From the NCBI GenBank assembly GCA_018819225.1, contig JAHJQN010000004.1, positions 194,813-258,812 on the forward strand: a stretch of 64,000 nt of DNA, written 5' to 3'. Source of the DNA: Candidatus Micrarchaeota archaeon (GTDB lineage Archaea > Micrarchaeota > Micrarchaeia > Norongarragalinales > SBBD01). Below, one piece after another: positions 4,033-61,563 of this stretch. Each line of letters begins with the position of its first letter. Position 1 is the first letter of the stretch. The translations under genes and the position numbers were made by a program. The notes beneath the pieces are model-generated. The model had not been told where the DNA came from and did not search any database. It saw nothing but the letters and a program-made list of their open reading frames with translations.

Positions 4033-5796
4033 CTATTTCGTTGGAATCAATCTCTCCAGATCATGCAAAATATGGGCAACGGATGTCCTCAATTCGTCCA
4101 AAATGTTACTTAACTCCGCGATTGTTACTTCAAGTGTTCCTACCCGTCCTTCAAGATCGGAACTCCCAAAAGGGGTAACCGAAGTGCATCCCTTGCTTTG
4201 TTTCTGAAGCCCCACAAGAGTACACATGTATTCCGTCTGGAACTTATTATTTTTTCCTTCAATGCGACGATGAGTGTAAGCGTTCACACCCGTGCAATAG
4301 AAGTCATAAAACGTGTTGCAAACCTGATTATCGTTAATGATATTATTTCCACTGGATAAAACAATTCCCCTCTCATTTCTGGAAATATCGTTATTCGTAA
4401 TATTAGTATCGGAGGTCACTTCAAGAGCAAGAAATTGATCTCTGAACTTATTACGAAAGATCGTTAGTGTTCCCTCAGAATTACCTAAGTTGGATGCGAT
4501 ACCCACATAATTGTTGTTTATTGTATTGTTCTCAAATAGCGATTGGGAAGCCGAATAATTGTGCCAGTACAGGATGTATCGAATGCCGTACTTGAAGTCT
4601 TGGATGATGCAATTCTTAACTGTTAAATTGCCATGGTGCAAGCTGTCTACTCCGCTGCCGAATCCTGATTCATAACCCGGCCCAGTAATGGAATGACCCT
4701 GACAATCCAAGGTTACGTCGTCTGATCCGATTATGATACAGCTATCGTTGTAGGTATCCACATGCAAGTCTTCTTCCAAGTAAGTGTCTTCGAAAATAAT
4801 ACCGCACGCAGAAGGCTCCGGTTCAGTTTCGTTCTGGGAATTGATTACGAAGTTGTCGAAAACGGAGTCCACGACGCCATCATGGCCGGCAACCGTCTCA
4901 AAAGAAAAAGTGATGGGATACTGATCGGTAAAATCGGTAATAATTGGAGGAGAACCATACACGTGCCACTCATTCGTCTGCGTAATCGTTCCGTTCGGCA
5001 ATATGGTTGTTAAAACGGCGGAAGAGTTACTGAACGAAATGTGGAGCTGGTAGTCTCCCAAATCGTTCCCCAACTGAACTTCCCCGTTCCAATTACCAAC
5101 CCATTTCTCAACCAACGTGCCATCCCTGAGTTTCAAGACCGTGCGAATCAAGCGGTTGCCGGAACCACTCGGGTAATACACGTAATAGGAAAGCTCATTG
5201 CCAGGATAGAATGAATGATTAGTCATAGTCATTCGTGTGCGGGCGTCACGGGCACCAAGCTGGCTGAGCCGATAGTTTTGAGTGAAGTTGTCACGGTAAT
5301 GCAAGTCAACGTGCCCAGACCCAGGCGTGCTTTCGTTCCATAACAGGTTCGTAGCCACTTCGTTGGAAAAGTCGTCGTATAACTGCTCGCCTTCATCTAG
5401 AACTGGAAGAGTCGTAAAGTTCTGGTTAGATGAATTAAGACAACCGAATTCATTGCAGTTCATTGTCATGACGTGATAAGTCGTGTTCGGCTCAAGGTCA
5501 TCGGAAATATTGAAGAAAAATGTTTGATTATAAGGAATACCTGCCCTGTAGTAAGAATACGTGTAATTATTCCAACCGCTACCCTCACCACTTCCAACAA
5601 AAAGAGTTGAATTAGCTGGCTGGTTAGTATACCAAGCAAACCACGCACTCGAACTCGTAATAAAGTAGACAGACAAATTGATCAGTGCAGGCGGTTCCGA
5701 AGGAATGGAAGGCGCTGACCCGAAATCATCTCCAGAAACGTAAGGAAAACTCGCCGCTAAACACAGAATCAATGCCCAAAAGCTAAAACGGTTCAT
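4033..5796 (-). CDS. secreted right-handed beta-helix repeat surface protein with many N-glycosylation sequons
   Basis: Signal peptide MNRFSFWALILCLAASFPYVSG (start chosen at internal Met, codon 5796..5794); parallel beta-helix-like repeats (NNTINNNYVGIASN, NITNNDISRNERGIVLSSGNNIINDN); >25 N-x-S/T sequons. Confidence 0.7.
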   Translation of the reverse strand: MNRFSFWALILCLAASFPYVSGDDFGSAPSIPSEPPALINLSVYFITSSSAWFAWYTNQPANSTLFVGSGEGSGWNNYTYSYYRAGIPYNQTFFFNISDDLEPNTTYHVMTMNCNEFGCLNSSNQNFTTLPVLDEGEQLYDDFSNEVATNLLWNESTPGSGHVDLHYRDNFTQNYRLSQLGARDARTRMTMTNHSFYPGNELSYYVYYPSGSGNRLIRTVLKLRDGTLVEKWVGNWNGEVQLGNDLGDYQLHISFSNSSAVLTTILPNGTITQTNEWHVYGSPPIITDFTDQYPITFSFETVAGHDGVVDSVFDNFVINSQNETEPEPSACGIIFEDTYLEEDLHVDTYNDSCIIIGSDDVTLDCQGHSITGPGYESGFGSGVDSLHHGNLTVKNCIIQDFKYGIRYILYWHNYSASQSLFENNTINNNYVGIASNLGNSEGTLTIFRNKFRDQFLALEVTSDTNITNNDISRNERGIVLSSGNNIINDNQVCNTFYDFYCTGVNAYTHRRIEGKNNKFQTEYMCTLVGLQKQSKGCTSVTPFGSSDLEGRVGTLEVTIAELSNILDELRTSVAHILHDLERLIPTK

Positions 5797-6044
5797 GTAA
5801 CTACACCCCCTATTGGCTACGGACAAACAACATTTTTTAAGGAGTGGCTTTGGTCGATTTCGGTTTGTTCGAGCGCATAACGATTTCAAAGAGGCGAATC
5901 TCGTCGATGGCCAAATAGAGCAGGGCTTAAATAGGGGTTTGCGGTCAGGGCAAGCGGGTGCGAGGCCAAAAGCCAGCCGGAACCGGCTTGGGATAGTAGA
6001 TTATGAGGGAATTATGGCGGGGGGCTTCGCTACCGTGGGCTGAA

Positions 6045-6174
6045 AGCCCCCGGCGAGAATCGAACTCGCGACCTCCTGTTTTCTCGCTCTTGCTTTTTTG
6101 GTCGAGCTTTTCTTAAAGAAAAGGTCGGGTGGCAAGGTTACGAGACAGGCGCTCTTCCGCTGAGCTACGGAGGC
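6045..6174 (-). tRNA. tRNA-Thr(CGU) with ~57-nt intron at canonical 37/38 position
   Basis: Reverse complement reads GCCTCCG-TA-GCTCAGCGGAAGAGC-G-CCTGT-CTCGTA[intron]A-ACAGG-AGGTC-GCGAGTTCGATTCTCGC-CGGGGGC-T; acceptor, D, anticodon and T arms all pair; intron 3' region (GCAAGAGCGAG) pairs with anticodon-loop/exon (CTCG..CTTGC) as expected for BHB. Confidence 0.75.
6098..6129. repeat. palindromic T-rich hairpin motif copy 1 (TTGGTCGAGCTTTTCTT-AA-AGAAAAGGTCGGG), inside tRNA-Thr intron
   Basis: 8-9 bp stem CTTTTCTT/AAGAAAAG; same motif recurs at 6204-6240, 7584-7622, 7842-7882. Confidence 0.6.
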
Positions 6175-7433: not shown

Positions 7434-7557
7434 GGGCCCGTAAGAGAAACCATCTCCGGGACGCTCAGCTTGGATAGAGCGATTGCCTCCTAATCACTCG
7501 CGGATTGCAAGTGGAGGGGAAAGCAATAGGTCGTGGGTTCGAATCCCACCGGGCCCG
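7434..7557 (+). tRNA. tRNA-Arg(CCU) with ~29-nt anticodon-loop intron and an unusual 20-nt insert between acceptor 5' strand and D stem
   Basis: GGGCCCG...[20 nt]...GCTC-AGCTTGGATA-GAGC-G-ATTGC-CTCCTA[intron]A-GCAAT-AGGTC-GTGGGTTCGAATCCCAC-CGGGCCC-G; acceptor strands complementary; canonical T loop. Confidence 0.6.
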
Positions 7558-7673: not shown

Positions 7674-7790
7674 GCGGAGGTCGCATAGTGGCTATTGCGG
7701 CAGCCTGCTATCTTTTTGCAGCGAAGGCTGCGGAAGGTTGGAAAGCTGTTGGCGCTTCGCGCCTCGTGGGTTCGAGTCCCACCCTCCGCG
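7674..7790 (+). tRNA. tRNA-Ser(GCU), class II with long variable arm and ~16-nt intron
   Basis: GCGGAGG-TC-GCAT-AGTGGCTA-TTGC-G-GCAGC-CTGCTA[intron]G-GCTGC-variable arm (GGCGC-TTC-GCGCC)-GTGGGTTCGAGTCCCAC-CCTCCGC-G. Confidence 0.75.
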
Positions 7791-48739: not shown

Positions 48740-49357
48740 TTACCCGCACTCGAGTGTTGAAATCATGTAGTCGGCTAGCTCCAAATCAGGGGCCAGCGGT
48801 TCAGAGATCGCTGCCGTGAACACGATCCAGTAGCTCGGGCACTCGTAAAACGCCTCTCTAACGAAAATAGTCTGGCCATCTACTGCTAGCTCGTCGTTTT
48901 CAATGGTAGTCATGTAGAGTTTGCGGCCGCGCTGTTCATATTCCGTCAATACGACGCCTTCACTTGTTGCTGACGCGCGAATCAATTGAGGAGTGAGTTC
49001 GTCTGGTCTCAAAATGCGTAGATCCATGATCTCGGATGAAAACGGGGGATAGAATGCCGCAATTCGCAAACGAATCGTGAATGCGGGTTCTAATTGAATG
49101 GAATACCCAACGGGATAACGAATGCGGTACCCGTAATCAGGATCGTAATAGGAAATGGTTTTTGATGCATATTTTTCATCCAGTTTCGGTAATTGTTCCA
49201 AACGCATCTCCTGAACAGACTCTGTGGCAACCGGAATGCGCTCCACCAGTTGTTGAGGAGCAGTATAAAGAGAGTAAGCAAAATAACCAAACACAATAAC
49301 CAACACAACCACTAGGAATACGTTCAAGAACGCTGAGGTTTTATGTTTCAAAGGCAT
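48740..49357 (-). CDS. N-terminally anchored membrane protein with extracytoplasmic domain
   Basis: TM FLNVFLVVVLVIVFGYFAYSL then 175-aa soluble domain; 4-nt gap to next gene. Confidence 0.45.
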   Translation of the reverse strand: MPLKHKTSAFLNVFLVVVLVIVFGYFAYSLYTAPQQLVERIPVATESVQEMRLEQLPKLDEKYASKTISYYDPDYGYRIRYPVGYSIQLEPAFTIRLRIAAFYPPFSSEIMDLRILRPDELTPQLIRASATSEGVVLTEYEQRGRKLYMTTIENDELAVDGQTIFVREAFYECPSYWIVFTAAISEPLAPDLELADYMISTLECG

Positions 49358-49405: not shown

Positions 49406-49681
49406 CTATCTTCTCACTTCAAACGAAGAAAAAGAACCCGTTGGTTCTGAATACGTCACGGAAGCATCTTGGACGTGCACGTAACCATCTTGAATCTTAA
49501 TCGCATCAACTAAATGCTTCAAAGCGTTTTCCTCTCCCTCCGCTTGGATTTCCACACGGCCGTCAGACAAATTCCTTACAAAACCTGCTACTGGAAAACG
49601 AGCTGCAATGCGTAAAACAGAATAACGATATCCAACTCCTTGAACGCTCCCCGAAACAATAACATGAACCGCTTTATTCAT
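49406..49681 (-). CDS. acyP: acylphosphatase
   Basis: VSGSVQGVGYRYSV...GFVRNLSDGRVEI acylphosphatase signatures. Confidence 0.8.
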   Translation of the reverse strand: MNKAVHVIVSGSVQGVGYRYSVLRIAARFPVAGFVRNLSDGRVEIQAEGEENALKHLVDAIKIQDGYVHVQDASVTYSEPTGSFSSFEVRR

Positions 49682-49692
49682 TTTCTCACGCG

Positions 49693-50496
49693 TTACTCAT
49701 GATGAACAGGGGGCATATGTTGTTGTAATAACCGCATTAATTCTTCATTCACTCCTCTTTGAATGCGCGCGGTCCCCCTTCCTTGCTGACGAGCCTCCTG
49801 ACTTGCCGCTAAATTTCCGATTTCATGCTGAGCCGTGTTCAATTGCTCTAACATTCTTTTAAGTACTCGATTGCGTTTATAAACTTCTAAAAACGATTGA
49901 CCCATCTCGACCCCGTGATTATTGATTATCGATCGTACGTTACGACGAACAGTAAAGAAATTGGTTTTACCCACAAAGGCGTTAACGAGATACGATTGGT
50001 TCTGGTGAGCACGACTTCTTACGGGACCCAAATCCGCTTGAACCGCTGCCTTGAACAAATCAGGATTTCTACGCAAATTTCCAGCGATTTCCGAATACTT
50101 GTCCACGATGCGCTGAACTTCCGTTAATTGGGTTCCTCGAAGTCCATGAAGTGCGCGTTGAAATTCAGCTGCGCGGGAAGCAAAATACTCGTAATCGCCT
50201 GCCGCCATTCGACTCGCCTCATTCACGTGATGCTCAGTACCAAACGTACGACCTAGACCTCGAAACATCTGGTTGTGAAGGGCTTGCCACTCTTCATTCG
50301 TGCTTGCTATGCTGTGCAAATCATGTTGAATGACGCTTCGGCGACGTCTCCCGAACCCGAAAAGCCTTCCGAGACGGCCAAAAACTCCCGTACGCGATTG
50401 CGGCACCTCCATTTCTTCCGTGTGCAACTTCAACCGCGTCGGTGGACGCGCCCCTTCTTCAAGGGGGCCATGATACTGGACCCGTGCTCTAGCCAT
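49693..50496 (-). CDS. hypothetical alpha-helical protein downstream of giant gene
   Basis: 267 aa, no TM, Arg/Gln-rich helical; 10-nt spacing to neighbours. Confidence 0.45.
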   Translation of the reverse strand: MARARVQYHGPLEEGARPPTRLKLHTEEMEVPQSRTGVFGRLGRLFGFGRRRRSVIQHDLHSIASTNEEWQALHNQMFRGLGRTFGTEHHVNEASRMAAGDYEYFASRAAEFQRALHGLRGTQLTEVQRIVDKYSEIAGNLRRNPDLFKAAVQADLGPVRSRAHQNQSYLVNAFVGKTNFFTVRRNVRSIINNHGVEMGQSFLEVYKRNRVLKRMLEQLNTAQHEIGNLAASQEARQQGRGTARIQRGVNEELMRLLQQHMPPVHHE

Positions 50497-50506
50497 ATCG
50501 AATCAC

Positions 50507-51190
50507 TTACGGAGCGGCCCCTCCTCCTGCAGGCGGAATTCTTCTAGAGCGTAGCTTCCGCATCCTTGAATCGCTTTGTTGGGCATATGCGCGAAGTAAA
50601 TCCAAAGCTTCTCGAGCAGCATGCCTTCTTGGAATTTCTGCGTTAATGCTTCGAGCCAGCAAATCAGGATTCTCAGTTAAAAATTTCTCTACCGTATGTC
50701 CGGAATATTCTTCACTTCGACCCGAATCCACCAATCGTTTAGCAATGGCATTGGCTCGGCTAGTAAATACCTGCTGAAAATGGCTATAACGAGTGGCCGG
50801 CAAACGTCGACTCACCATGACCTCGTGAAGTGCAGCTAAAGTTTCTCTACGCGGATCGCCGTGTCGAAGCTCATCACGCATACTCTCAATAGTCATATGA
50901 TCTCCCGCCACCCATGCACGCAGGACGTCCATGGTACGCCGCGTTTTTATCATATCTCGACGCGATCCAAAAACAGTTTCAACAACGGGCTCCAGATTCA
51001 TAGCTGGTTCTCGAGCAATTTTCTGAAGGACCGGTAATATCTGAGATTGATGCACAGTTGGATCCGTATTCAATAACTCTCTTGCTTCTTTAAAGGGATA
51101 AAGTGCTCTCCGTTTACCTCGTGCGCTTAGTTCTCCTTCCCGAGAGATCATTCGTTCACGCATTTGTTTCGGACCGGAAGGGGTCGCCAT
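50507..51190 (-). CDS. hypothetical alpha-helical protein immediately downstream of giant gene
   Basis: 227 aa, no TM, Arg-rich; 11 nt after giant-gene stop. Confidence 0.45.
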   Translation of the reverse strand: MATPSGPKQMRERMISREGELSARGKRRALYPFKEARELLNTDPTVHQSQILPVLQKIAREPAMNLEPVVETVFGSRRDMIKTRRTMDVLRAWVAGDHMTIESMRDELRHGDPRRETLAALHEVMVSRRLPATRYSHFQQVFTSRANAIAKRLVDSGRSEEYSGHTVEKFLTENPDLLARSINAEIPRRHAAREALDLLRAYAQQSDSRMRKLRSRRIPPAGGGAAP

Positions 51191-51201: not shown

Positions 51202-54200
51202 TCATGGTTCAATGGGAACTCCTGCGGATTGTCGCAGGGTGTTCAATGCTTCAGGATACTTCGTATCATCAAACTGTTTTTGCGCCACAGGAATCGCGTC
51301 TTCCACAGCCTGCGGGCATCCATCGTTGATACACCATTCGCGGAAACGCTTTAATAAAGCCTCCACTGCCTCTTTCGGCGATGCTGGAACCAAAGTCACT
51401 GCGTTCGTAACCGTTGCACCCGTGACCGTCGTGAAAACAGGTGAACGGAAGTCCAGTGGATCCGAGTAAGAATGAACAAGAGAAGGATCGGGAACAAACG
51501 AAGAGGCAACAGGAACATTAGGATCAAACATCGACGTAATGAAATAATCAGGGGACACTCCTTTGTTGAAAGAGGTCACTAAATTGTATTGAGGAATTCC
51601 GGCCAAAACCGTTCCTTCAGTAAGATAAAGGCACGCGTGTTCGGAATCCGGACACAATTCTTCCGTGTCCACCCGGTTCGCGCATTCATTCAAATCCTTT
51701 TCATTGCGGAAACAGTATTCTTTCATGGAAGCGGCTTGGCCTTCCTCATTATGGTATACGACGAGATGGTTCCCGAAACGGTAATCCAATTCAGCGCGCA
51801 CGGGACGCACTTCCGTGTAAAACAGCAAGGGCGCAACCAGTGATCCTATCAAGCTGATACCCCGGAAACTTTTCTTTGTAAACGACGACTCCTTAACTGC
51901 GTTCCCAACGGAGCGGAAACGTCCGGAGCGGGAACGAACCGCATCGAAATCATCGGCAAGCGTTTTGGATGCTTGTTCAACGGCATCGTCGAATTTAGTC
52001 AGGGTTCTAGCTTTCGTGGCGCGATCGCGTACGTGCTCAATGATTGCGCGTTCTTCCGTATTTGTCAATGCGCCACCCAAAGCATTCCGCAGTTTACCGT
52101 TCAATGAAGTGCGAACAAATCTGCCACTTCCGCCTTTGATTTCATTGACGGCCACTTCATCGTAATTGCGCAATACGTTTGCAAGTTCGTCGGGGGTGAG
52201 AATGCGTCTGAAATCGAGGTCAATAGGTCCTGCAGTTTGAGAATATAATTTCCATAATTCATCCGACACCGCTGACGGTCGGGCATCGCTCCTAAGGAAA
52301 GCAGATAACGTTTCCGATTTTCCATATAAATTATAATTTGGAGGCAGACGATTATTAATTAATTCATCCACTACTTTTTCTCGTATATTTGGATCCCTAT
52401 CAAGGGCGGTGAATAAACTTCTAATCTTGGTATTGAATTGATCTTGCGTCGGGGCTATTGTCCGAGATACGTCGGTGAGTTCATTATAGAGCGTCGTACG
52501 AGTTCCGGGTGCGGTAAGATCCACCCAGGCATTCATTCGCGCCCGTCCGTCCGCTCCAGAAAGGAGTTGAGTGAAATCATTGACGCTGCTTCTTGGCACA
52601 AGAGCAGTTTCTCCCGGGGTATGAATCAAGTTGACGAGCGCACGAGAAATCGTTGAGGAACTAATCGTGCCGCCGGCTGTTTGGGTATAACGAGTGACCA
52701 AAGCGTCCGCGAATTCAAGCGACATGCCTTGGTGCATGAAGTAATCGGTCATAAACGCTCGGCTGCCGAACGGACGGAATACTTTGGAAGCGCCCGCCAC
52801 AATGGGAACCGTAGCAGGAGTAATACCTGGTGCGAACTCGCTATCTAGGACCGTATTCGAGCCTCCGAGAATGGCACTTAATGCACCAGTAACCGCCAAA
52901 TTACCGATCAATTCATTACCTCCTCGACGTGCCACCTGACTGGCAAATGTACTAGAGAGTAAGCCGCTGGCTCCAGTTATTGAATTGACTCCAGGAACAG
53001 CACCGGTTGGAAGAACCAAGTTAAGATAGAAATCAGTTAGAGCAAATGTTTGGAACGAAATACATGCATTGATTCCTTCGCATATTCCGACGCGTGAAGG
53101 CGCAAGGGAATCAACGGCAATGGATGCGGTACAACCCGTGATTCCGGTAACCAAGCTGTAAACGCCCTGCGCAAGACGAGGGGCGAATACGGGAGCGGCA
53201 AAAATGCTTCCGACAATTGCGACTAATGCGCCCGGAGCACCAGCTAATAATAATGCACCGGTTGCTTTTCCTCCGTTTTCAATGCAGGCACCCGTATCTT
53301 CGAATGGAACCGCCTGTGATAAGGGGTAATCGTTGTATCCGTAAAGGGTGTTCAACAGCAAATCGGCGTGCCGTTCATCATCCGCGCTGGGCGCTTCGCG
53401 GTATGGACCAATAGAGAATATGCGGAATTTTTCAAAAAATCCAGTATCCCCTTCCCGTTTCTTATTGGTCCAAATAATGTGCGGATTCGGTTCTCTTCCA
53501 ATGATGACTTCCGGCGTGTCCGCGGTCAACAGGTTCGTGTTGTACAATTTTTCCTCGCATGCAAGAAAACGAGTTGGAGAAGGCAAAGAGCTGTCCACAT
53601 GCATTTCAATGAATGAAGATTTCAACCACTCCTCCTTATTAGGTCGTAGCTCACATAGACCCAGGCGCGCAGTTGCAATGTAAATACCGCATTGATCGGC
53701 AGTACCCGTTGCAGTATATTTGATTGATTTCTTGCCGCCGACAAAACCGAATTCACCTAAACCTTCTTGGAAAGCGGTTTGAAGATCGTTCAAATTGATT
53801 TTCGTGTTCGCCATTTGAACGACAACGCTTTTACGGTAATCGCGGTTGAATGCGCGAACAACGGGATCGGATGGATTGCAGAACTTATTGAGCTCTTCAT
53901 TGAATTTTTCGTCTTCTTGTGTATAGAAGGTTGTTATGAGTTGAGCCACTTGTGCTCCGAATCCCTTGAAAGCTGCTTTCGCCTCATCTGCAGTGCAGAA
54001 GTTTGTGGAACAGGGTATGACCGCGTCAGCCACTCGAATAATCCCTGACGGAACAACAGAAACTGGAGTGGTTGGAGCACTTGCAGGCGGAACAGATGGT
54101 GCAGAATGTGCCGGCACTGCTGGTGCGGGTGTTCCCGGGGGCACACCACTCGCAGGCGTTAATGATGGAGGCATAGCGGGTGGATCGCGGAGTATAAGAT

Positions 54201-57200
54201 CCCCAAGCGGTGTGCCGGAAAAGAGGTTTTTCATAGCAGGGTTCGCGGGATCGATTTCATACGATTCAACATTTACGAACTTGGAGTCCGTTTTTCCGTT
54301 GATGGATCCTTTGAACTTGATCTCCATGTATCCACTCCACGGGCGCAGAGACTCGCATTCTGAAATATAGCCTTCTCCGGCACGCAACGAAGTGGGAATG
54401 TCGCATCGTAAGAAACCGGTTCCGTTAGCGGAATAGGTTTGATAGTTAAGCGTCACCGACTCATCGAGATTGTTGGCCATGGAAATCCATCGCTTGTGAC
54501 CCAAATCCTTGAACACCAGTTTTTGGGGCGCCGTGGTTTTCACGTTTTGTTGCGAGCGGTCATAATTTACGTAGAAACCACCCAGCGCGTCTCGAAGTTG
54601 AGCGCGAAGAGAGCCTACGCACGAACCGGTTTTCTCGAAGGTGAGAATCAGTTTAGCGGGAACGAATTGCGCGCCGCTTCCCCGGTAATCATAAAATATT
54701 TTGACGTCGCCTTCCAAGGGACCGAGTTCATCCAACTTCTCTTGAGGCAACAAACAGCCATCATCATCCGTATACTGTTGAGGTACTTGAACCGAGAACA
54801 AGAATTGCTGCACCTGGCAAGCCGCATCCTCATTCTTATCCTGTTGGGCTTTACCCGCCAGAATCATGTGCGCGCCTTCATCCCAAGCGCTGGGTTTGCG
54901 AATCTTTCGAATCACGCCCTCCAACTCGGAACTAATGGACTCGCCAGAAAGCGCGTTACGGCTTTCCGCAGTCCAGCTCTTCTCGTCCTCATCACCGGAA
55001 ATATCCATGTAAACGCTTACTTCCGAAGGAGCGTCATTCAATACGCAGAATCCTTTCTCCACGATTCCTTCCACGTTCGAATCCGTGAACTCAAAGGTTT
55101 GCTCCTTGGGCTTGATGCGAATGGGCACGAAATTATCGGTAATCATGGCGAAGCCATCCGGATTGCGGGATGGACGCTCGCATAAAATCAAGGTAGTCTT
55201 CGAATCGGCGGGAACGGAGATCTGCTGGGGTTCGTCCTTCTCTTTCGGAAACGGATTCATGTCAGAGAACCAAATCTCTTTCACTTGAGGCAATTGATAA
55301 CTCGTTTCGCCGCGGACATTGATTTGTATTTCGCGGCACCCCTGCAAGTCAACGCGTTTCGTCATGCTATGGATTTCCGTGCTCACCTCCGGCGCGTCCT
55401 CAGGCAATAAGTATACGACGTCATCCGTGAACGTGGCGTGGAACTTGTATTTCTTGTCCGTATCCTGGCAGATGCGCGTCACGAACCGCGTGTCGACCGG
55501 AATGGAGAACGTGACCGCGTCTTCCGTTTCATCCGCTTTTTCGACGTCATCCGCCATCAAACGCATGCCATTGAATTCAAACAAATCATTCTCCGCGTTG
55601 TCTTCCATTGCGAGCTCCGTGCAAATGCTCAAGCGGTAAGACTGCATGATGTCGCCATTCTTTTCGAACGGTTCCTCAAGGAACTTGTCGAATGTTTCTT
55701 GCGGAACATTCACGTCCACATCATTCGGGAAGTGATGAAAAACAAAGTCAACGCCTTGCAAGCCCGCAAGGTCCTCATCGATCATGACGAACGTGATGGG
55801 AACATTGCGTTCCACGAACAAATCCTTGTACGGTTCAGCGGCTTGCAATACCGGTCGGAAGGGAAGCTCAACGTTGTAACTGTACGTCGTAACCGCGTTC
55901 TTGACCACGCGGGCGTTCACCGGAAAGTGCAAGACGACATCCTGCGGGAACGTGACCGTAAAGCGGTCCTCCCCGAAGCGTTGTTCCTCTTCCTGTAACA
56001 TGCTGTAATCGAATACGATGGACACGGATGGCGGTACTTTGAGGTCGCGGCGTTCGCCGAATTCCTCATCTTCAATCGAAGCGCCTTTGACGAGCATGCG
56101 TTGGTTGGACGGGAATTCTAACAGATGGCGGTCATCCTTTACGCTATAGCGCGCGTTGACGTTGAACGGCAACGTCATGTCGAAACCGACTGGCAAGCGC
56201 TTTTCATTACCCGTCATGCCAAAGTCAGGGCGACCGAAAATAATTTGAGTGAGAGGCATGACTTCGACCGTCCGGGAACCGTCCGGCGCTTTCAAGCCCG
56301 CACGAGCGACTCCGTTCAAGAAACTCATTTCCAGGTAATCCGTGGAAATGCTTTTCGCGCGCACGCCATCCGGAGCAATATTCAAGGATACTTCAGGGCC
56401 GTCGCGTACCAAGAATAGGACGCGGAAAGGCAGGCTCAGAACGATCTCGCCGTTATAGGTTCGTAATGCGAACGGCGATGGAATGCGCAAGGCACTACCG
56501 GCTGGAATCGTGACGCGTTTGAAATCACGCGCGTCCATTGAAATAATGGCATCGGAAGGCAACGAAATCGTGTTTCCGCTTTGGAATTGAAGGGCTTTTC
56601 CTCCGCTAAAACTGTCTTTCTTGACGCGAATGAATTCCTCGATGATGAACGTGGCTTCAACGGGGAACTCGACTTCTAAAGCGTCTTGAGAGGAAATGAT
56701 GGGCGTCAACGAAATCTGAATGGGTTGGTGCGCGTTGACGCGGACGCGGCGTTCTTCACCCGAATAGGGGCGATATTGAGTGGAACTCGTCGGGTACTTG
56801 ATGTCGAAATCGTTGATGGAAGCCGTTTCAAAAGCCCCTTCGCGAGCAAACTCGGTTTCCGTTGGGAAATCGAGGTATACGACGACGGGCAAGCGGAGTT
56901 CCCAACCGTATTGCATGAAGTTGCGCTGGTAAGGCGATAGGTAACTACGGTACGTATTGTAACCTTGCACGGGAATGCGTCGCGCATAGCGGGCGGGAAC
57001 TTCAAAGAAAGCGCCGGAAGGAATGACGGCCACTAGACTGCCGCCTCCTTGCTCGATGGAAAACGTGAAGGTGCTCGAGTAAGGCGAGGATTGTTGCAAA
57101 TCGTTGAGATCTCCCACGCGAACGTCTGCATCAAACAGCATGGTGTCCCCGCTCGGAAGCTCAATGAAAGTCGAGCCATCCGGATTAGTATGCGTAAGCG

Positions 57201-60200
57201 TATTGGGAGGCAATTGCAAGACGATTTGCATGGGAAGCGATATGCGCACGCCTCCACTCACGCTTTTCACTTCGGGTTCGACGGCTTGGCAAGTGTGATC
57301 AATGGCGGCCTCGCTTTCTCCGCATTCGAGGAACTCGCACACTCCCGAAGAACAGATTTCATCATTGGAACATTCATCATCGGCAACACAGCCGGGTTCA
57401 GGGGTCGGAGTGAACGTGACTCCTGCCGGATAGATTTCCACGCGAGTGGAAAGGCAAGCGAGATTGCCGGCTTGTGCGCGAACCTCGTAACGACCCTTCG
57501 AACTGTAGTAACAGGAGGCCGTGCAGCTACCCGTGGTTCCCGTGCAACTCACGGCATTGGATGTGCGGCCGTTACCGCAATTTACGACAACGACGTTTGG
57601 GGCGCGATTCAAGTCATAATAGTCAACAGTAATGGTACTCGTCCCTTCTTCCTCAATGCGGTTCGGATCCGCATTTAATGCACAAGTGGGTACTAACGGA
57701 GTGGGAACCGGAGTCGGCGTCACGAATTCCGTTGGTTCGGGAGTTGACGTCGGATCCTCATCGCCCGCATGCACGTCCCTGCAATTTTCGGATGAAGACG
57801 CGGTATACGTAAGTCCGACGCGCTTGCGGGACGTGATTCCGAGCGTGCTCGCGTAAAGCGTTAATGTACCGTCGCGTTCATCGTCCTCTAGATCGCACGG
57901 ATCCACGGGATACGCGCGCGCCACCACCTTAAATTCCGCTGAATCCCCTGCGGCAATGGTTTGCGAAAGCGGTTCCATGTATACGTTGGAGAGCGTGCTC
58001 TGGTAATTGATGAGAATGGGATAATCGGCGTCGTTGGTAACGACCATGGTTTGCGTGTCACGGGGTTCGCGAGGCGGTTTCAAGGTAAACTGCAGGGAAT
58101 CAGCTGAAGCAGACCACAACGCCTCCAAGTCCTGTTGGGTAAACGAAGAGGCGATCGTGAACGGAACGGATTCCTCTTGGTCGTAGCTGCCCAAGCGAGC
58201 TCGTACGAGGAGGCGGCCGGAAACGGTTTCGGATAGAGTGTTCGCACGAGCTGCAACGGGCAAAATAGTATCGAGAATGCGGGCTCGCAAATTGATGGAT
58301 TGGGTATCGCGCGCTTTCAAACGGAAGGAGGAAAGGTCGACGGATACGTCCGTATACTGGGGGTTGCGTCCAAACTGCATTTGAACGGAAACGCGTACTT
58401 CATTATCCAATAGGTTAGTGACGCTGAAACCTTGTTCTTGATTGTCGGTCGAATCAACGGTTAATGACAAGGTTTCCCCTTCCACGGAAATGAGTTCATC
58501 GCCAGTGACGCGCAGGAAACCGCGTTTGACCTTAAAGCCTTCGGCCTCGACCTGGTAGGTGACGGTCCCGATCGCGACGGGGTGAATGCCTTCCACGCGG
58601 TACTGGGCACTGCCATCCCGACCCTCGGAAAAAACGCCTTCAATGATGGCGCCGCGGAGGGCATCATTCCCGTTTCCAACGGATACGTAGGCATGAGAAA
58701 CCGGCAGCCCCAATGAATCTTCGACGGCAAACGTCACCATGTTGTCTTGAAGTGCTTGCAATGAAGACGGACGATTCGTCACTTTGAGATCGGGTTTGGT
58801 GCCGACCACGCGGACGTACAGCGAACGAGTGATCACGGTTTCCGCGTTGCGTACTTGAAGCTGCAATGCCACGTCATTCGAGAGACGCTGGGCTTGAATC
58901 AAGAACTGGCCTTCCGCATTGTCTTCAGAAGTCGTAATAGTGATCAGTTCCTGATCGCCTGCGGAACGCGCCACCGCGCGACTTCCACCGGATGAACCTT
59001 CCGTTAACGTGATCGATTCGTCGAGAGCAGATGAAGAAAGCTCGACCACGGTTCCTCTTGGAGCCGCTACGTGGAATTGAAGCGAAAAGGTTTCGCGAAT
59101 TTCCGCCTCATAATTATCCAAAGCGCGCCCATTTTGTCCTTCGAAGAAGTAATCCAAACAAAGATCGTCTTCACATAATCCACCAAATGAAATGGGTGCG
59201 GTAATCGTTTTCATGTTCGCGAGAATGGAAGATGTCGAAGCGGTTTCGTCGAGGGGATCGCGAAGGGTTTCGCGCGCGGTGTCGAAAGCCGAACGGTATT
59301 GCAACATAGCCGTTCCATCGGAAACCGCTTTGGTTCGCACAAACACCGCGATTTCCTTCGTGCCTTCAAACGGTTGGAACGTGAAATGAACGTATTTATA
59401 CGCGGGCTGGAATTCCGGATCCGCGAACTCCAATTCCTCCGCAGGCGTCGGGGAAGGCGTTTCCGTAGGGACATCCGTAACGATAACGGGGGACAAATCG
59501 TATAACGTTCCTTTTGTGACGAAAGCCGTGCCGGCTTCGTAACCAACGATTTCAACGAGCTCGTTATCCAGCGAAGAATCCGCTGAACCGACGCGCACGT
59601 GAACTTCAGCCCTTGAAACGTCGACATTGGGGCGAGTCAACAAGAATTTGGCTTTGTAAACCGTTGAAGGCGATAACGAAGAGGCTTTGTTGCTCTTCAA
59701 ATCATACAATCCCTGGAAAACGATTTGCGATCCTCGGGCGCCGGAAGGCAGCAGTTCAAACGAATCCCGATTCGTGATCCCGGGAATGACTTCAAATTCA
59801 GACGATAGCAAGGTTTCATACCCTTCCAGGGAAACGCGAGCAACATAAAACCCTTCCAAGATATCCACCGCGCATTTACCGCGTTCCGTGACGCACGAAT
59901 CCTCTTTAATAAACGTTCCGCCGGAAAACGATAATTCAACGAGGGCACCATCCAGAGATTGATTCGTAAAGTAATCATAAACGGAGACGACGAGCTTGGC
60001 TTTTCCGGGCTGCAAGATCACTTCAATCAAGTTGACTTCAGGTTCTTCCCCGGTTCCGTCAATCGAAATCAATTCCGGATTACTTTTTCCTTCCCGGCCC
60101 GCGAAACTGGCTTTGACAAAAATGCGTTCCAACGGAACATCGGGAAAATCAGCGGATCCATCGGCGGACGTGAACTTTTCGGAGATGCCCATGGGTTTCC

Positions 60201-61563
60201 CGTTCTCCCAGAATAATCCAACCGAAGCCTCGGGAATCGATTCCAGGGATTGGTCAATCACATTCACTTCCACTAACGCCGAATTTTCGTCGTTCGCCTT
60301 AACTAAAACCATTTCGTAACGTTCTCCGCGACGCGCCTCTTCAACGAACGCCGGAAGGAAACCGAACTTGTAAGCCGTAACATAATAGGTTCCGGGGTCC
60401 ACGTTCTCGAATGCGGCCGAGCCATTGCTCGGAATCTGTTCCTCAATGCGAGCCCCCTTGCTGTCATAAAGCCGCACAATCGGGTTCAACACATGGGTGC
60501 CGCCTTCATCGTTCACTTGAACCATGATGGACCGCTGAGCCGACTCGGGAATCGCGTGCAATGAGAGTTCAATAACCGTATCCTTTTCCACGAACACGGG
60601 AATGGAGGATAAGGACTCAAAACCGGCCGCTCGCGCGGATACGATGATGCGGGTGCCCAACAGAACGTCTTGAACCGGAATCCGGCCGTTTTCTCCGGTG
60701 AGGAGATTCGTATACAAGGCCTTTCCAGAAATGGCATCTGCAATGTCTACGCTGGCATTCGCAATGCTTTCATCGTTCGCGTCATCCGATACCAGGACGC
60801 GGACTTTTCCCAAAACGTCTCGATCCTTCGGAAGCAAAACAAAGGGCGTGAAGACCTCGTCACGCGTCCCAACCGAAATTTCACGGGAATCGTCAACGTA
60901 CCCTTCAGCGGAAACAATGATTTTATACGTGTTTTCGGGCTCGACTTCAAACGTCACCGATGAACCGGATTTTGAATCCTGAACGGGCACCAGCGTATCG
61001 GAATCCACGATCCAGAAAACCGCCGAAGGCGGGCCTTGAACCGACAAACTGATGCTCACGGTTTGTTTAACGACTTCTTCCACTAAACGTAAAGAAACAA
61101 TGTTATCGGAAGCGTCTTTCTCGATGGTCACGGTCTTACCCGCCGTAGAAAACTCGAGCGTTTCCTCATCCGAATTCAATGCCGAAATGCGGAACGTGAC
61201 CCCGATCGGCACATTCGAAAAAAAGGCGACGCCCTCGGAATCCGTGATGCCCTCCAATCGTTCGTGAATGCCTTCCGTGTCCACCAAATAAACGGCGGCA
61301 TTGATGACGGGAAATCCGTCGGCCGTCTGAATTTCGATGGCGACGTCCGATTGCTGAGGCCCTAACAGCGCGGTCCCCCCCAGTAAAAAGAATCCGGCGC
61401 CGCCGATCAGAAGCAGCAATATTAAAACAAACGCGGGTAGCGACGGAATGCCTTTTTCTTCAAGGGTTTCGGCAACGCTCTTGAACGGCAGTCCTTTTTC
61501 CTCGCTCCAATCCAAGAAATTGGCCCAACCATCCTGGATTTTTTCAAATAAGTCTTCTAGCAT
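51202..61563 (-). CDS. giant (3453 aa) signal-anchored multidomain surface protein: CarboxypepD_reg/Ig-like repeat array, Cys-rich modules, Pro-rich linker, ~950-aa C-terminal module with glycine-zipper hydrophobic segment
   Basis: Single uninterrupted frame of 10.4 kb; N-terminal cytoplasmic acidic 40 aa then TM (LPAFVLILLLLIGGAGFFLLGGTALLG); >=6 repeats of the DG.P...A.V.L.D..G....TD..G.A.F..V..G.Y pattern; PT-rich linkers; DPPAMPPSLTPASGVPPGTPAPAVPAHSAPSVPPASAPTTP linker; GALLLAGAPGALVAIVGSIFAAPVFAP GxxxG-rich segment. Confidence 0.8.
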   Translation of the reverse strand: MLEDLFEKIQDGWANFLDWSEEKGLPFKSVAETLEEKGIPSLPAFVLILLLLIGGAGFFLLGGTALLGPQQSDVAIEIQTADGFPVINAAVYLVDTEGIHERLEGITDSEGVAFFSNVPIGVTFRISALNSDEETLEFSTAGKTVTIEKDASDNIVSLRLVEEVVKQTVSISLSVQGPPSAVFWIVDSDTLVPVQDSKSGSSVTFEVEPENTYKIIVSAEGYVDDSREISVGTRDEVFTPFVLLPKDRDVLGKVRVLVSDDANDESIANASVDIADAISGKALYTNLLTGENGRIPVQDVLLGTRIIVSARAAGFESLSSIPVFVEKDTVIELSLHAIPESAQRSIMVQVNDEGGTHVLNPIVRLYDSKGARIEEQIPSNGSAAFENVDPGTYYVTAYKFGFLPAFVEEARRGERYEMVLVKANDENSALVEVNVIDQSLESIPEASVGLFWENGKPMGISEKFTSADGSADFPDVPLERIFVKASFAGREGKSNPELISIDGTGEEPEVNLIEVILQPGKAKLVVSVYDYFTNQSLDGALVELSFSGGTFIKEDSCVTERGKCAVDILEGFYVARVSLEGYETLLSSEFEVIPGITNRDSFELLPSGARGSQIVFQGLYDLKSNKASSLSPSTVYKAKFLLTRPNVDVSRAEVHVRVGSADSSLDNELVEIVGYEAGTAFVTKGTLYDLSPVIVTDVPTETPSPTPAEELEFADPEFQPAYKYVHFTFQPFEGTKEIAVFVRTKAVSDGTAMLQYRSAFDTARETLRDPLDETASTSSILANMKTITAPISFGGLCEDDLCLDYFFEGQNGRALDNYEAEIRETFSLQFHVAAPRGTVVELSSSALDESITLTEGSSGGSRAVARSAGDQELITITTSEDNAEGQFLIQAQRLSNDVALQLQVRNAETVITRSLYVRVVGTKPDLKVTNRPSSLQALQDNMVTFAVEDSLGLPVSHAYVSVGNGNDALRGAIIEGVFSEGRDGSAQYRVEGIHPVAIGTVTYQVEAEGFKVKRGFLRVTGDELISVEGETLSLTVDSTDNQEQGFSVTNLLDNEVRVSVQMQFGRNPQYTDVSVDLSSFRLKARDTQSINLRARILDTILPVAARANTLSETVSGRLLVRARLGSYDQEESVPFTIASSFTQQDLEALWSASADSLQFTLKPPREPRDTQTMVVTNDADYPILINYQSTLSNVYMEPLSQTIAAGDSAEFKVVARAYPVDPCDLEDDERDGTLTLYASTLGITSRKRVGLTYTASSSENCRDVHAGDEDPTSTPEPTEFVTPTPVPTPLVPTCALNADPNRIEEEGTSTITVDYYDLNRAPNVVVVNCGNGRTSNAVSCTGTTGSCTASCYYSSKGRYEVRAQAGNLACLSTRVEIYPAGVTFTPTPEPGCVADDECSNDEICSSGVCEFLECGESEAAIDHTCQAVEPEVKSVSGGVRISLPMQIVLQLPPNTLTHTNPDGSTFIELPSGDTMLFDADVRVGDLNDLQQSSPYSSTFTFSIEQGGGSLVAVIPSGAFFEVPARYARRIPVQGYNTYRSYLSPYQRNFMQYGWELRLPVVVYLDFPTETEFAREGAFETASINDFDIKYPTSSTQYRPYSGEERRVRVNAHQPIQISLTPIISSQDALEVEFPVEATFIIEEFIRVKKDSFSGGKALQFQSGNTISLPSDAIISMDARDFKRVTIPAGSALRIPSPFALRTYNGEIVLSLPFRVLFLVRDGPEVSLNIAPDGVRAKSISTDYLEMSFLNGVARAGLKAPDGSRTVEVMPLTQIIFGRPDFGMTGNEKRLPVGFDMTLPFNVNARYSVKDDRHLLEFPSNQRMLVKGASIEDEEFGERRDLKVPPSVSIVFDYSMLQEEEQRFGEDRFTVTFPQDVVLHFPVNARVVKNAVTTYSYNVELPFRPVLQAAEPYKDLFVERNVPITFVMIDEDLAGLQGVDFVFHHFPNDVDVNVPQETFDKFLEEPFEKNGDIMQSYRLSICTELAMEDNAENDLFEFNGMRLMADDVEKADETEDAVTFSIPVDTRFVTRICQDTDKKYKFHATFTDDVVYLLPEDAPEVSTEIHSMTKRVDLQGCREIQINVRGETSYQLPQVKEIWFSDMNPFPKEKDEPQQISVPADSKTTLILCERPSRNPDGFAMITDNFVPIRIKPKEQTFEFTDSNVEGIVEKGFCVLNDAPSEVSVYMDISGDEDEKSWTAESRNALSGESISSELEGVIRKIRKPSAWDEGAHMILAGKAQQDKNEDAACQVQQFLFSVQVPQQYTDDDGCLLPQEKLDELGPLEGDVKIFYDYRGSGAQFVPAKLILTFEKTGSCVGSLRAQLRDALGGFYVNYDRSQQNVKTTAPQKLVFKDLGHKRWISMANNLDESVTLNYQTYSANGTGFLRCDIPTSLRAGEGYISECESLRPWSGYMEIKFKGSINGKTDSKFVNVESYEIDPANPAMKNLFSGTPLGDLILRDPPAMPPSLTPASGVPPGTPAPAVPAHSAPSVPPASAPTTPVSVVPSGIIRVADAVIPCSTNFCTADEAKAAFKGFGAQVAQLITTFYTQEDEKFNEELNKFCNPSDPVVRAFNRDYRKSVVVQMANTKINLNDLQTAFQEGLGEFGFVGGKKSIKYTATGTADQCGIYIATARLGLCELRPNKEEWLKSSFIEMHVDSSLPSPTRFLACEEKLYNTNLLTADTPEVIIGREPNPHIIWTNKKREGDTGFFEKFRIFSIGPYREAPSADDERHADLLLNTLYGYNDYPLSQAVPFEDTGACIENGGKATGALLLAGAPGALVAIVGSIFAAPVFAPRLAQGVYSLVTGITGCTASIAVDSLAPSRVGICEGINACISFQTFALTDFYLNLVLPTGAVPGVNSITGASGLLSSTFASQVARRGGNELIGNLAVTGALSAILGGSNTVLDSEFAPGITPATVPIVAGASKVFRPFGSRAFMTDYFMHQGMSLEFADALVTRYTQTAGGTISSSTISRALVNLIHTPGETALVPRSSVNDFTQLLSGADGRARMNAWVDLTAPGTRTTLYNELTDVSRTIAPTQDQFNTKIRSLFTALDRDPNIREKVVDELINNRLPPNYNLYGKSETLSAFLRSDARPSAVSDELWKLYSQTAGPIDLDFRRILTPDELANVLRNYDEVAVNEIKGGSGRFVRTSLNGKLRNALGGALTNTEERAIIEHVRDRATKARTLTKFDDAVEQASKTLADDFDAVRSRSGRFRSVGNAVKESSFTKKSFRGISLIGSLVAPLLFYTEVRPVRAELDYRFGNHLVVYHNEEGQAASMKEYCFRNEKDLNECANRVDTEELCPDSEHACLYLTEGTVLAGIPQYNLVTSFNKGVSPDYFITSMFDPNVPVASSFVPDPSLVHSYSDPLDFRSPVFTTVTGATVTNAVTLVPASPKEAVEALLKRFREWCINDGCPQAVEDAIPVAQKQFDDTKYPEALNTLRQSAGVPIEP

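What the first reader, a model, noticed from the sequence alone, without database searches (positions are those of the whole stretch)
51205..54190. Giant protein C-terminal ~950-aa module behind a proline-rich linker contains a glycine-zipper-like hydrophobic segment
After DPPAMPPSLTPASGVPPGTPAPAVPAHSAPSVPPASAPTTP (about nt 54050-54190) comes a distinct module. Its middle (about nt 52760-53270) is Gly/Ala-rich and hydrophobic with repeated GxxxG/AxxxA spacing (GALLLAGAPGALVAIVGSIFAAPVFAP...GNLAVTGALSAILGG). These features are typical of membrane-inserting or pore-forming segments. The module ends in a Cys-containing ~120-aa tail (CPDSEHAC...WCINDGCPQ). The molecule could therefore be anchored at both ends, or it could carry a membrane-active or translocated C-terminal effector, as in polymorphic toxin architectures.
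Basis: partly seen in the sequence, partly recalled or inferred. Interest (0 to 1): 0.6.

Follow-up and report, generated by a model that had tools for sequence, protein, structure and literature searches.

The report
Conserved membrane-binding tail of giant archaeal protein
The last ~950 residues of a 3,453-residue surface protein from a tiny symbiotic archaeon (Micrarchaeota) form a conserved, previously undescribed module with weakly hydrophobic helices that probably hold the protein's far end in a membrane; it does not look like a swappable toxin tip.

Summary
After the proline linker (res 2460-2500) come five parts:
- a six-Cys α/β domain;
- a ~170-aa low-charge Gly/Ala/Ser/Thr-rich helical region;
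- a fast-evolving Cys-free helical stretch;
- a short hydrophobic helix followed by an almost invariant RPVxAxLDY..NH motif;
- a ~200-aa α/β tail with three Cys pairs.

Only one helix (2768-2790) reaches ordinary transmembrane hydrophobicity. Glycine-zipper motifs are not enriched.

The module is rare: 17 hits among 1.84 billion representative proteins. Wherever the full protein is known, it sits at the C-terminus of a 2,700-3,650-aa protein. It is about as conserved as the rest of the protein, and no toxin, Pfam or PDB relative was found, so the polymorphic-toxin idea is not supported.

I favour, at moderate confidence, a second membrane attachment that works with the N-terminal anchor.

Two further findings:
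- A small membrane-anchored protein gene lies downstream in 11 of 11 loci.
- N-glycosylation sequons are strikingly avoided: 4 against 21 expected in this protein, and 1 against 42 across the C-modules.

A host-membrane insertion role stays open.

The parts
51202..61563 (-). Giant gene, 3,453 aa (NCBI MBU1197541.1, annotated 'hypothetical protein', Candidatus Micrarchaeota archaeon).
   Evidence: ORF list and translation. Exact match in the protein collection. Syntenic homologues in Micrarchaeota MAGs.
61378..61434 (-). N-terminal signal-anchor helix, residues 44-62 (AFVLILLLLIGGAGFFLLG). It follows a conserved 43-aa segment (nt 61435-61563) that is probably cytoplasmic.
   Evidence: KD 2.64, Hessa sum -3.1, Wimley-White -12. 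The N-terminal motif is conserved in P0003-P0006, P0011 and P0012. The cytoplasmic location is inferred.
54064..54186 (-). Pro/Ala/Ser-rich linker, residues 2460-2500, separating the ectodomain from the C-module.
   Evidence: A variable low-complexity stretch sits at the same place in the homologues.
53284..54015 (-). Domain A, residues ~2517-2760. An α/β domain with six conserved Cys (2518, 2523, 2562, 2625, 2637, 2669) and the motifs CxTNFC, CGIYI and IGPYKE.
   Evidence: AF2 pLDDT about 55-80 (ten-residue block means) over most of module residues 13-265, with low-confidence stretches. Six Cys in each of the 8 members that cover the domain. Alignment A1. No Pfam or PDB hit.
52774..53283 (-). 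Hydrophobic, low-charge Gly/Ala/Ser/Thr-rich helical region, residues 2761-2930. Helix cores: H1 2768-2788, H2 2797-2817, H3 2830-2850, H4 2885-2905. Conserved Cys at 2760, 2811, 2828 and 2834.
   Evidence: AF2 models long helices at low confidence. Net charge alternates between helices across the family. C2760, C2828 and C2834 are invariant.
51886..52773 (-). Variable helical region, residues 2931-3226. Fast-evolving, with no Cys and no sequon in any member. Basic clusters flank it at both ends.
   Evidence: Identity 17-31% per bin. Length 152-324 aa with 0 Cys and 0 sequons. All-helical but pLDDT <50. Flank charges +22 and +28 summed over 9 members.
51814..51885 (-). Short hydrophobic helix H5, residues ~3227-3250 (ISLIGSLVAPLLFY).
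   Evidence: KD 1.29, Wimley-White -5.5. AF2 models an isolated helix at low confidence. Conserved hydrophobicity and a preceding K/R cluster.
51766..51807 (-). Near-invariant motif RPVRAELDYRFGNH, residues 3253-3266. This is the best-conserved sequence of the module.
   Evidence: P3254, V3255, D3260 and H3266 are invariant in A1. P, V and H are >=90% conserved in the 14-sequence A2.
51205..51813 (-). C-terminal tail domain, residues 3251-3453. A β-sheet plus helices, ending in a three-helix bundle. Three Cys pairs: 3284/3294, 3304/3311 and 3411/3416.
   Evidence: AF2 mean pLDDT 75.7 and 75-93 in the full-module model. Cys are lost pairwise in divergent members. No fold match in the PDB.
48740..49357 (-). 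Conserved companion gene 'g205', 205 aa. It has an N-terminal TM helix and a ~160-aa domain with two invariant Cys.
   Evidence: A homologue lies on the same strand downstream of the giant gene in 11 of 11 loci that hold downstream DNA. Alignment A4. No Pfam or PDB hit.
49406..49681 (-). Acylphosphatase-like gene (91 aa) between the giant gene and g205. Conserved there in 8 of 11 loci. A functional link is unproven.

Best explanation
The C-terminal ~950 aa is a conserved module that defines this protein family. It attaches the far end of a giant Micrarchaeota surface protein to a membrane.

Proposed mechanism (all steps inferred):
- The N-terminal signal anchor (residues 44-62) starts export of the ~2,400-aa ectodomain.
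- Behind the Pro-rich linker sits a disulfide-bonded α/β domain at the membrane surface.
- The Gly/Ala/Ser/Thr-rich helices (2768-2905) enter the cell's own membrane as one or two helical hairpins. The conserved Cys at 2760, 2811, 2828 and 2834 lie at the outer face.
- The variable helical stretch, the short helix H5 and the conserved disulfide-bonded tail stay next to the membrane.
- There they probably engage the small membrane-anchored protein g205, which is always encoded downstream.

The result is a protein tethered at both ends. It is not a toxin-tipped filament.

Shown: the module's architecture, its conservation and rarity, its lack of known relatives, and its linked gene.
Inferred: membrane insertion, topology and the partner interaction.
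For: - A conserved low-charge, G/A/S/T-rich region of 149-172 aa occurs in all 9 aligned members.
- H1 reaches KD >=1.6 in 5 of 9 members: 2.15 in the window, 2.06, 1.99, 1.67 and 1.64.
- AF2 models five helices there; four are 21-32 residues long, which is enough to span a membrane.
- Net charge summed over the family alternates between helices: +8 between H1 and H2, -21 between H2 and H3, +17 between H3 and H4, -19 after H4.
- All conserved Cys lie in the segments predicted to be outside, and they occur in even numbers: 6, 4 and 6. The tail Cys are lost in pairs, as expected for disulfides.
- The module is always C-terminal in giant proteins that share the same conserved N-terminal anchor.
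- It is conserved like the rest of the protein.
- The companion gene g205, with an N-terminal TM helix and a domain with two invariant Cys, lies downstream in 11 of 11 loci.
- No toxin, enzyme or other known family was detected.
Against: - Apart from H1, no C-module helix is much more hydrophobic than β-strands of the ectodomain. Hessa sums are >= +5 and Wimley-White sums are -3 to -5.6, against -12 for the true anchor. In some members not even H1 passes.
- AF2 confidence in the region is low: pLDDT 26-63.
- The topology signals conflict. Basic clusters flanking the variable helical region (+22 and +28) suggest that it is cytoplasmic. Yet it has 0 sequons against 14.3 expected. The longer stretch 2835-3282 has 1 Cys against about 23 expected from the window's cytoplasmic ORFs, which suggests that it is outside.
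- H5 has only about 15-17 hydrophobic residues.
- No dedicated TM or topology predictor was available.
- There is no experimental evidence.
Confidence: 0.45

Rival explanations
1. Host-membrane insertion device. The whole chain after the N-terminal anchor is exported. The weakly hydrophobic Gly/Ala-rich helices are kept out of the producer's membrane, perhaps held by domain A or by g205. On contact they insert into the host cell's membrane, tethering the two cells or helping to open or fuse the membranes.
For: - The helices are only marginally hydrophobic, which would let them escape stop-transfer in the producer.
- H3 and H4 carry conserved acidic residues.
- The whole chain beyond about residue 1000, including the variable helical region, is kept free of N-glycosylation sequons: 1 against 41.7 expected in the pooled C-modules, while the reversed motif is 33 against 41.7. 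Residues 2835-3282 are also nearly Cys-free. Both fit an entirely extracytoplasmic, glycan-free working end.
- The module sits behind a flexible Pro-rich linker at the far end of a long repeat stalk.
- DPANN giant membrane-anchored proteins are generally proposed to mediate host contact (PMC5905446, PMC6642349).
Against: - There is no similarity to any known fusogen, pore-former or translocator.
- H1 of the window protein (KD 2.15) would probably be retained in the producer's membrane during Sec export.
- The charge alternation fits ordinary co-translational topogenesis.
- The host and the contact structure of this organism are unknown.
Confidence: 0.2
2. Not membrane-embedded at all. The Gly/Ala-rich helices are the buried core or the oligomerisation interface of an extracellular helical domain. 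The protein is anchored only by its N-terminus. The C-module is a distal binding or assembly head.
For: - Four conserved Cys lie inside or beside the hydrophobic region.
- Sequons and Cys are depleted right through residues 2835-3282.
- Hydrophobicity of H2-H5 is in the range of ectodomain β-strands.
- Helices H3 and H4 carry conserved acidic residues.
Against: - About 8-16% charged residues over 149-172 aa, with 38-46% G+A+S+T, is unusual for a soluble helical domain, and it is conserved in all members.
- H1 is clearly in the TM range in several members.
- AF2 does not pack these helices into a confident globular core.
Confidence: 0.2
3. Polymorphic toxin or translocated C-terminal effector, with a downstream immunity gene.
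For: - The general layout fits: a giant repeat-rich protein, a linker, and a distinct C-terminal module.
- A small gene is always encoded downstream. In principle it could protect the producer against a membrane-active module.
Against: - The C-module is conserved in orthologues like the rest of the protein, and its extreme C-terminus is among the best-conserved parts.
- The same module is present in all full-length relatives.
- No toxin or pre-toxin Pfam domains occur in 9 members.
- No structural match was found.
- The genes immediately downstream here (g227, g267) are unconserved basic helical proteins.
Confidence: 0.04

Closest known systems
Polymorphic toxin systems (CdiA, Rhs/YD, MafB-type; recalled from established literature)
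   Same: A giant, repeat-rich exported protein with a separate C-terminal module behind a linker, and a small gene encoded downstream.
   Different: The C-terminal module is conserved rather than variable. No VENN, PT-HINT or toxin domains were found. The conserved downstream protein is a membrane-anchored protein with an apparently extracytoplasmic domain, not a typical cytoplasmic immunity protein.
SPEARE giant proteins of Nanohaloarchaeota (PMC6642349)
   Same: DPANN archaeal proteins of several thousand residues, mostly extracytoplasmic, membrane-anchored, and proposed to mediate host interaction.
   Different: SPEARE proteins carry laminin-G, serine-protease, toxin-like and cytoplasmic restriction-endonuclease domains. 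They have one TM helix near the C-terminus. None of these domains is detected here. This protein has an N-terminal anchor plus a multi-helix hydrophobic C-module.
Polytopic membrane proteins with one huge extracellular loop between TM1 and a C-terminal TM cluster (YhgE/Pip, EsaA, ABC-2-type; recalled from memory, topology analogy only)
   Same: An N-terminal TM helix, then a very large extracellular region, then a cluster of C-terminal membrane helices. This would tether both ends.
   Different: No sequence match to those families in Pfam or NCBIfam. The helices here are far less hydrophobic. They are followed by about 520 more residues, including a disulfide-bonded tail.
Membrane-insertion regions of translocating toxins and Gly/Ala-rich viral fusion peptides (recalled from memory; analogy for the rival reading)
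   Same: Weakly hydrophobic Gly/Ala-rich helices with embedded acidic residues, next to disulfide-bonded domains and long helical stretches.
   Different: No sequence or fold similarity was detected. No evidence of triggering, cleavage or oligomerisation.
Micrarchaeota S-layer protein SLP_Mh (bioRxiv 10.1101/2021.04.28.441871)
   Same: A surface protein from the same phylum.
   Different: SLP_Mh is a 101-kDa protein with similarity to S-layer domain PF05123 and many predicted glycosylation sites. The giant protein has no PF05123 hit and avoids sequons.

Membership tests
Polymorphic toxin systems | The C-terminal domain varies between strains or orthologues while the upstream part is conserved. 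| tested here: not met
   Per-100-aa identity to the two syntenic orthologues is similar in the C-module and upstream. The last 250 aa are among the best conserved: 49-58% and 27-42%. True strain-level data are unavailable, because the protein is a singleton cluster.
Polymorphic toxin systems | A recognisable pre-toxin junction or toxin domain (VENN, PT-HINT, Ntox/Tox families). | tested here: not met
   No Pfam family at E<=0.1 that is shared by members or relevant, in any of 9 C-modules. No PDB sequence hit. No Foldseek hit at E<=1e-3.
Polymorphic toxin systems | A cognate immunity gene immediately downstream. | tested here: inconclusive
   The immediately downstream g227 and g267 are not conserved. 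A conserved downstream gene (g205) exists in 11 of 11 loci, but it is a membrane-anchored Cys-containing protein of unknown role.
Transmembrane glycine zipper (recalled definition: (G/A/S)xxxGxxxG or GxxxGxxx(G/S/T)) | The motif is present and enriched in the hydrophobic helices. | tested here: not met
   0 motifs in the window's residues 2760-2930 (1.5 expected). 0-2 in the other members, never above shuffles. Small-xxx-small pairs number 27, against 23.2 +/- 3.1.
Integral membrane (TM helix) segment | A stretch of about 19-23 residues with TM-range hydrophobicity. | tested here: inconclusive
   H1 scores KD 2.15 and Hessa sum +1.5 in the window, and KD >=1.6 in 5 of 9 members. H2-H5 score KD 1.0-1.6 and Hessa >= +5. 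The scales used are crude, and no dedicated predictor was available.
Integral membrane (TM helix) segment | Positive-inside charge alternation of the connecting loops. | tested here: met
   Family sums are +8, -21, +17, -19, +22 ... +28, -2 around H1-H5. This conflicts with the sequon and Cys depletion of the long helical region.
SPEARE proteins (PMC6642349) | Laminin-G or adhesion domains, serine-protease and restriction-endonuclease domains. | tested here: not met
   The Pfam scan of the whole protein finds only CarboxypepD_reg, SpaA, Big_1 and PEGA-like repeats at residues ~200-470. Nothing was found in the C-module.
Archaeosortase PGF-CTERM sorting signal (recalled definition) | A PGF motif, a TM helix and a short basic tail at the extreme C-terminus. 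| tested here: not met
   The sequence ends in a ~200-aa folded domain (...LRQSAGVPIEP), not in a TM helix. No NCBIfam hit.
Archaeal S-layer protein (PF05123-type) | The S-layer domain. | tested here: not met
   No PF05123 hit.

The most novel reading that the evidence does not exclude
The glycan-free distal part of this giant protein ends in a device that inserts its weakly hydrophobic Gly/Ala-rich helices into the host cell's membrane. That would tether symbiont and host, or help open the cytoplasmic bridge seen in DPANN-host pairs. The always-linked small membrane protein g205 would act as a holder or safety catch. This would be a new class of intercellular membrane-insertion or fusion machinery with no relative among known fusogens or pore-formers.
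Probability: 0.15. Interest if true: 0.9.

Novelty: new variant of a known kind. Interest (0 to 1): 0.5.

Why it matters
DPANN archaea depend on physical contact with host cells, and the proteins that make this contact are almost unknown. This module defines a rare family of giant surface proteins that, so far, comes only from Micrarchaeota. The family has:
- a conserved membrane-interacting end;
- a gene partner that is always linked to it;
- a strong, specific avoidance of N-glycosylation sites, in an organism whose other secreted proteins are sequon-rich.

Together these give concrete, testable handles for finding out how such cells attach to, or open, a partner membrane: topology reporters, liposome assays and localisation at contact sites. 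The result also removes a tempting but unsupported 'polymorphic toxin' annotation.

Tried and rejected
Searches that found nothing:
- The search for homologous proteins with the C-module and with a 14-sequence tail alignment both returned nothing. The protein itself is in that collection, so I treat this as a tool miss, not as absence.
- The full HMMER scan of representatives did find the family.
- Pfam, NCBIfam and PDB searches by sequence or profile: no relevant hits.
- Foldseek of the 949-aa model against the PDB and BFVD, and of the tail model against the PDB: nothing at E<=1e-3 and TM-scores <0.25, apart from a trivial three-helix-bundle match.
- The metagenome scan with the close-relative tail alignment found nothing. 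A second scan with another subgroup gave 3 loci.
- The tail and g205 profiles are unrelated.
- ARAGORN found none of the tRNAs that Rfam reported.

Ideas rejected:
- S-layer protein: the known one is a different 101-kDa protein.
- SPEARE-type protein: no shared domains.
- PGF-CTERM sorting signal.
- Cysteine-protease reading of the 'CGIYI' motif: there is no invariant His in domain A.
- Zinc-binding reading of the tail Cys: the Cys are lost pairwise.
Full report
ORGANISM AND GENE
The window comes from an archaeon. It encodes EF-1α and ribosomal protein S10. Its three Rfam tRNA hits are 100-130 nt long, which implies introns. EF-1α is at most 87% identical to MAG sequences; nearly all of the 80 best loci are labelled Micrarchaeota (or Micrarchaeia/Norongarragalinales) or simply 'archaeon', with single exceptions. 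The finding lies in one ORF, 51202..61563 on the minus strand, 3,453 aa. Its exact sequence is NCBI MBU1197541.1, 'hypothetical protein, Candidatus Micrarchaeota archaeon', on a 709-kb contig.

CHECK OF THE OBSERVATION
- the Pro-rich linker is residues 2460-2500 (nt 54064-54186);
- GALLLAGAPG... is residues 2769-2795;
- GNLAVTGALSAILGG is residues 2887-2901;
- CPDSEHAC is residues 3304-3311;
- WCINDGCPQ is residues 3410-3418.

Residues ~2760-2930 are low in charge and rich in G/A/S. The same composition is found in all nine aligned relatives: 38-46% G+A+S+T and about 8-16% charged residues over 149-172 aa. It is therefore a selected property.

The 'GxxxG/AxxxA' claim fails:
- small-xxx-small pairs number 27, against 23.2 +/- 3.1 in shuffles;
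- strict glycine-zipper motifs are absent from the window's segment and are not enriched in any member.

Only one helix looks like an ordinary TM segment. It is 2770-2788, with Kyte-Doolittle 2.15 and a crude Hessa sum of +1.5. The N-terminal anchor (residues 44-62) scores 2.64 and -3.1. The remaining C-module helices score KD 1.0-1.6. By the Wimley-White scale they are no more hydrophobic than ectodomain β-strands.

THE FAMILY
A full HMMER scan of 1.84 billion representative proteins found only 17 hits at E<=0.001. At least two of these are repeat-driven false positives.

The real relatives are fragments or giant proteins of 2,700-3,657 aa. They carry the module at the C-terminus. They share the window protein's conserved N-terminal segment, its signal-anchor helix and its CarboxypepD_reg-like repeats. 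Those with a named source come from Micrarchaeota.

Syntenic orthologues lie next to EF-1α and S10 in three MAGs.

Per-100-aa identity to the two orthologues with long overlaps:
- nearest orthologue: 24-43% upstream of the linker and 26-58% inside the C-module;
- second orthologue: 20-60% upstream and 17-49% inside.

The last ~250 residues are among the best conserved. Residues ~2950-3200 are the least conserved. This is the opposite of a polymorphic-toxin pattern.

ANATOMY OF THE MODULE
This rests on alignments A1 and A2 and AlphaFold2 models.
1. Domain A, residues ~2517-2760. An α/β domain with block pLDDT mostly 55-80 and some low-confidence stretches. Six Cys are conserved in each of the eight members that cover the domain. 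Motifs: CxTNFC, CGIYI and IGPYKE.
2. The hydrophobic region, residues 2761-2930. AF2 draws helices of 32, 27, 24, 13 and 21 residues at low confidence. C2760, C2828 and C2834 are invariant, and C2811 is nearly so.
3. A helical region of 152-324 aa. It diverges fast, contains no Cys and no sequon in any member, and is bracketed by basic clusters.
4. A short hydrophobic helix, H5 (~3232-3250). It is followed directly by RPVRAELDYRFGNH, the most conserved motif.
5. A ~200-aa tail. It is a β-sheet plus helices ending in a three-helix bundle, with mean pLDDT 75.7. Its Cys pairs are 3284/3294, 3304/3311 and 3411/3416. Divergent members lose these Cys pairwise. That points to disulfides, and so to an extracellular location, rather than a metal site (inference).

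TOPOLOGY EVIDENCE
The signals conflict.

For a membrane-embedded region: net charge summed over the nine members alternates cleanly around the helices. The sums are about 0 before H1, +8 between H1 and H2, -21 between H2 and H3, +17 between H3 and H4, -19 after H4, then +22. Before H5 the sum is +28, and after H5 it is -2. This is what a polytopic membrane protein obeying the positive-inside rule would show. It would place the long helical region in the cytoplasm and the tail outside.

Against a cytoplasmic helical region:
- the region has no N-x-S/T sequon, against 14.3 expected;
- residues 2835-3282, pooled over the members, hold 1 Cys, where the window's cytoplasmic ORFs (0.64% Cys) predict about 23.

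Both are marks of an extracytoplasmic segment.

I therefore cannot fix the number of spans. The options are:
- a two-helix hairpin (H1-H2);
- a four-helix arrangement with everything else outside;
- an H1-H2-H3...H5 arrangement with a cytoplasmic helical domain.

SEQUON AVOIDANCE
The giant protein has 4 N-x-S/T sites, against 21.3 expected. None of 500 shuffles was as low.

Five relatives have 0-5 sites, against 15-23 expected. The two most distant relatives carry sequons only in their N-terminal parts.

Controls in the same proteins are at expectation:
- reversed [ST]xN: 142 observed, 145.5 expected;
- QxS/T: 153 observed, 146 expected;
- DxS/T: 224 observed, 209 expected.

The pooled C-modules have 1 sequon, against 41.7 expected. 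Seventeen other ORFs of the window show no depletion (46 against 37.7). One of them, the ORF at 4033-5889 with an apparent signal peptide, is sequon-rich (19 against 10). Selection therefore keeps most of this protein free of N-glycans. I cannot say why.

GENOMIC CONTEXT
A 205-aa gene (48740-49357) encodes an N-terminal TM helix and a ~160-aa domain with two invariant Cys.

A homologue lies on the same strand downstream of the giant gene in all 11 loci that hold downstream DNA. It is directly adjacent in the three most divergent loci. It has no Pfam or PDB relative and is unrelated to the tail.

An acylphosphatase gene lies between the two in 8 of 11 loci. The two genes immediately downstream in the window, g227 and g267, encode basic helical proteins and are barely conserved.

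INTERPRETATION
I favour a cis membrane attachment, at a confidence of about 0.45. In this reading the hydrophobic helices embed in the producer's membrane, so the protein is tethered at both ends. The disulfide-bonded domain A and the tail sit at the outer surface, probably with g205.

Two rivals remain serious, at about 0.2 each:
- The helices insert into the host membrane. This is supported by the marginal hydrophobicity, the conserved acidic residues in H3 and H4, the glycan-free and Cys-free state of the whole distal chain, and the general idea that DPANN giant proteins mediate host contact (PMC5905446, PMC6642349).
- The helices are simply the core of an extracellular helical domain.

The polymorphic-toxin reading is close to excluded (about 0.04).

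COMPARISON WITH KNOWN SYSTEMS
- The protein shares only its general class with SPEARE proteins, and none of their domains (PMC6642349).
- It is not the Micrarchaeota S-layer protein (bioRxiv 10.1101/2021.04.28.441871).
- It has no PGF-CTERM signal.
- By topology it resembles membrane proteins with one huge extracellular loop, such as YhgE/Pip or EsaA. That resemblance is recalled from memory and has no sequence support.

I rate it a new variant of a known kind: a giant membrane-anchored DPANN surface protein with a module that has no described relative.

Noticed in passing
window 51202-61563 (-), whole giant protein; also P0002-P0006, P0011, P0012: Strong and specific avoidance of N-glycosylation sequons. 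The window protein has 4 N-x-S/T, against 21.3 expected. The family total is 39 against 145.5, while the reversed motif is 142 against 145.5. The pooled C-modules have 1 against 41.7. Other ORFs of the window are not depleted (46 against 37.7). Sequons are tolerated only in the N-terminal ~500-1900 residues, depending on the member.
   Followed up: yes
window 48740-49357 (-); homologues in L001, L002, L006, L082-L088: A 205-aa protein with an N-terminal TM helix and a ~160-aa domain with two invariant Cys is encoded downstream of the giant gene in 11 of 11 loci. It is directly adjacent in the three most divergent loci. It has no known family.
   Followed up: partly
window 49406-49681 (-): A small acylphosphatase-like gene sits between the giant gene and g205 in 8 of 11 loci. 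Whether this is functional linkage or plain synteny is unknown.
   Followed up: partly
window 49693-51190 (-): Two basic, helical ORFs with no TM-range hydrophobic segment (227 and 267 aa) lie directly downstream of the giant gene. They are almost unconserved even in the closest genomes: g227 has no hit, and g267 is 31% identical in L002 only.
   Followed up: partly
window 61435-61563 (-); L081 9261-9875, L084 151-618, L085 9456-9866: The 43-aa segment before the N-terminal anchor (...EEKGLP...LEEKGIPSLP) is conserved across the family. In three other loci a small gene just upstream of the giant gene encodes a mini-paralogue. This has a similar G(L/V/Y)PPLP-type motif, a TM helix and a short (~90-aa) extracellular segment.
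   Followed up: partly
window 4033-5889 (-): ORF with an apparent signal peptide (MNRFSFWALILCLAASFPYVSG) and 19 sequons against 10 expected. It is probably a heavily N-glycosylated surface protein. It has no convincing Pfam family.
   Followed up: partly
window 1-4000: G+C is 0.35-0.37, against about 0.50 in the rest of the window. The genes here include a fusion of 2'-5' RNA ligase-like and metallophosphoesterase domains, and a CBS-CAP protein. This may be foreign or recently acquired DNA.
   Followed up: no
window 6045-6174 (-), 7458-7557 (+), 7674-7790 (+): Three Rfam tRNA matches of 100-130 nt, which implies introns. ARAGORN in its default mode reports none of them.
   Followed up: partly
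window ~57270-57700 (-), residues ~1290-1430 of the giant protein: A Cys-rich module (...CGNGR...C.G..G.C...C.Y...). It is present once here and in three tandem copies in P0002 and P0003.
   Followed up: no
L081 1-9211; L082 1-5949; L084 15676-20863: In other Micrarchaeota the family member lies next to further giant surface-protein genes, including β-helix/NosD, PKD and CarboxypepD_reg types of >1,900 aa. This suggests clusters of giant envelope proteins.
   Followed up: no
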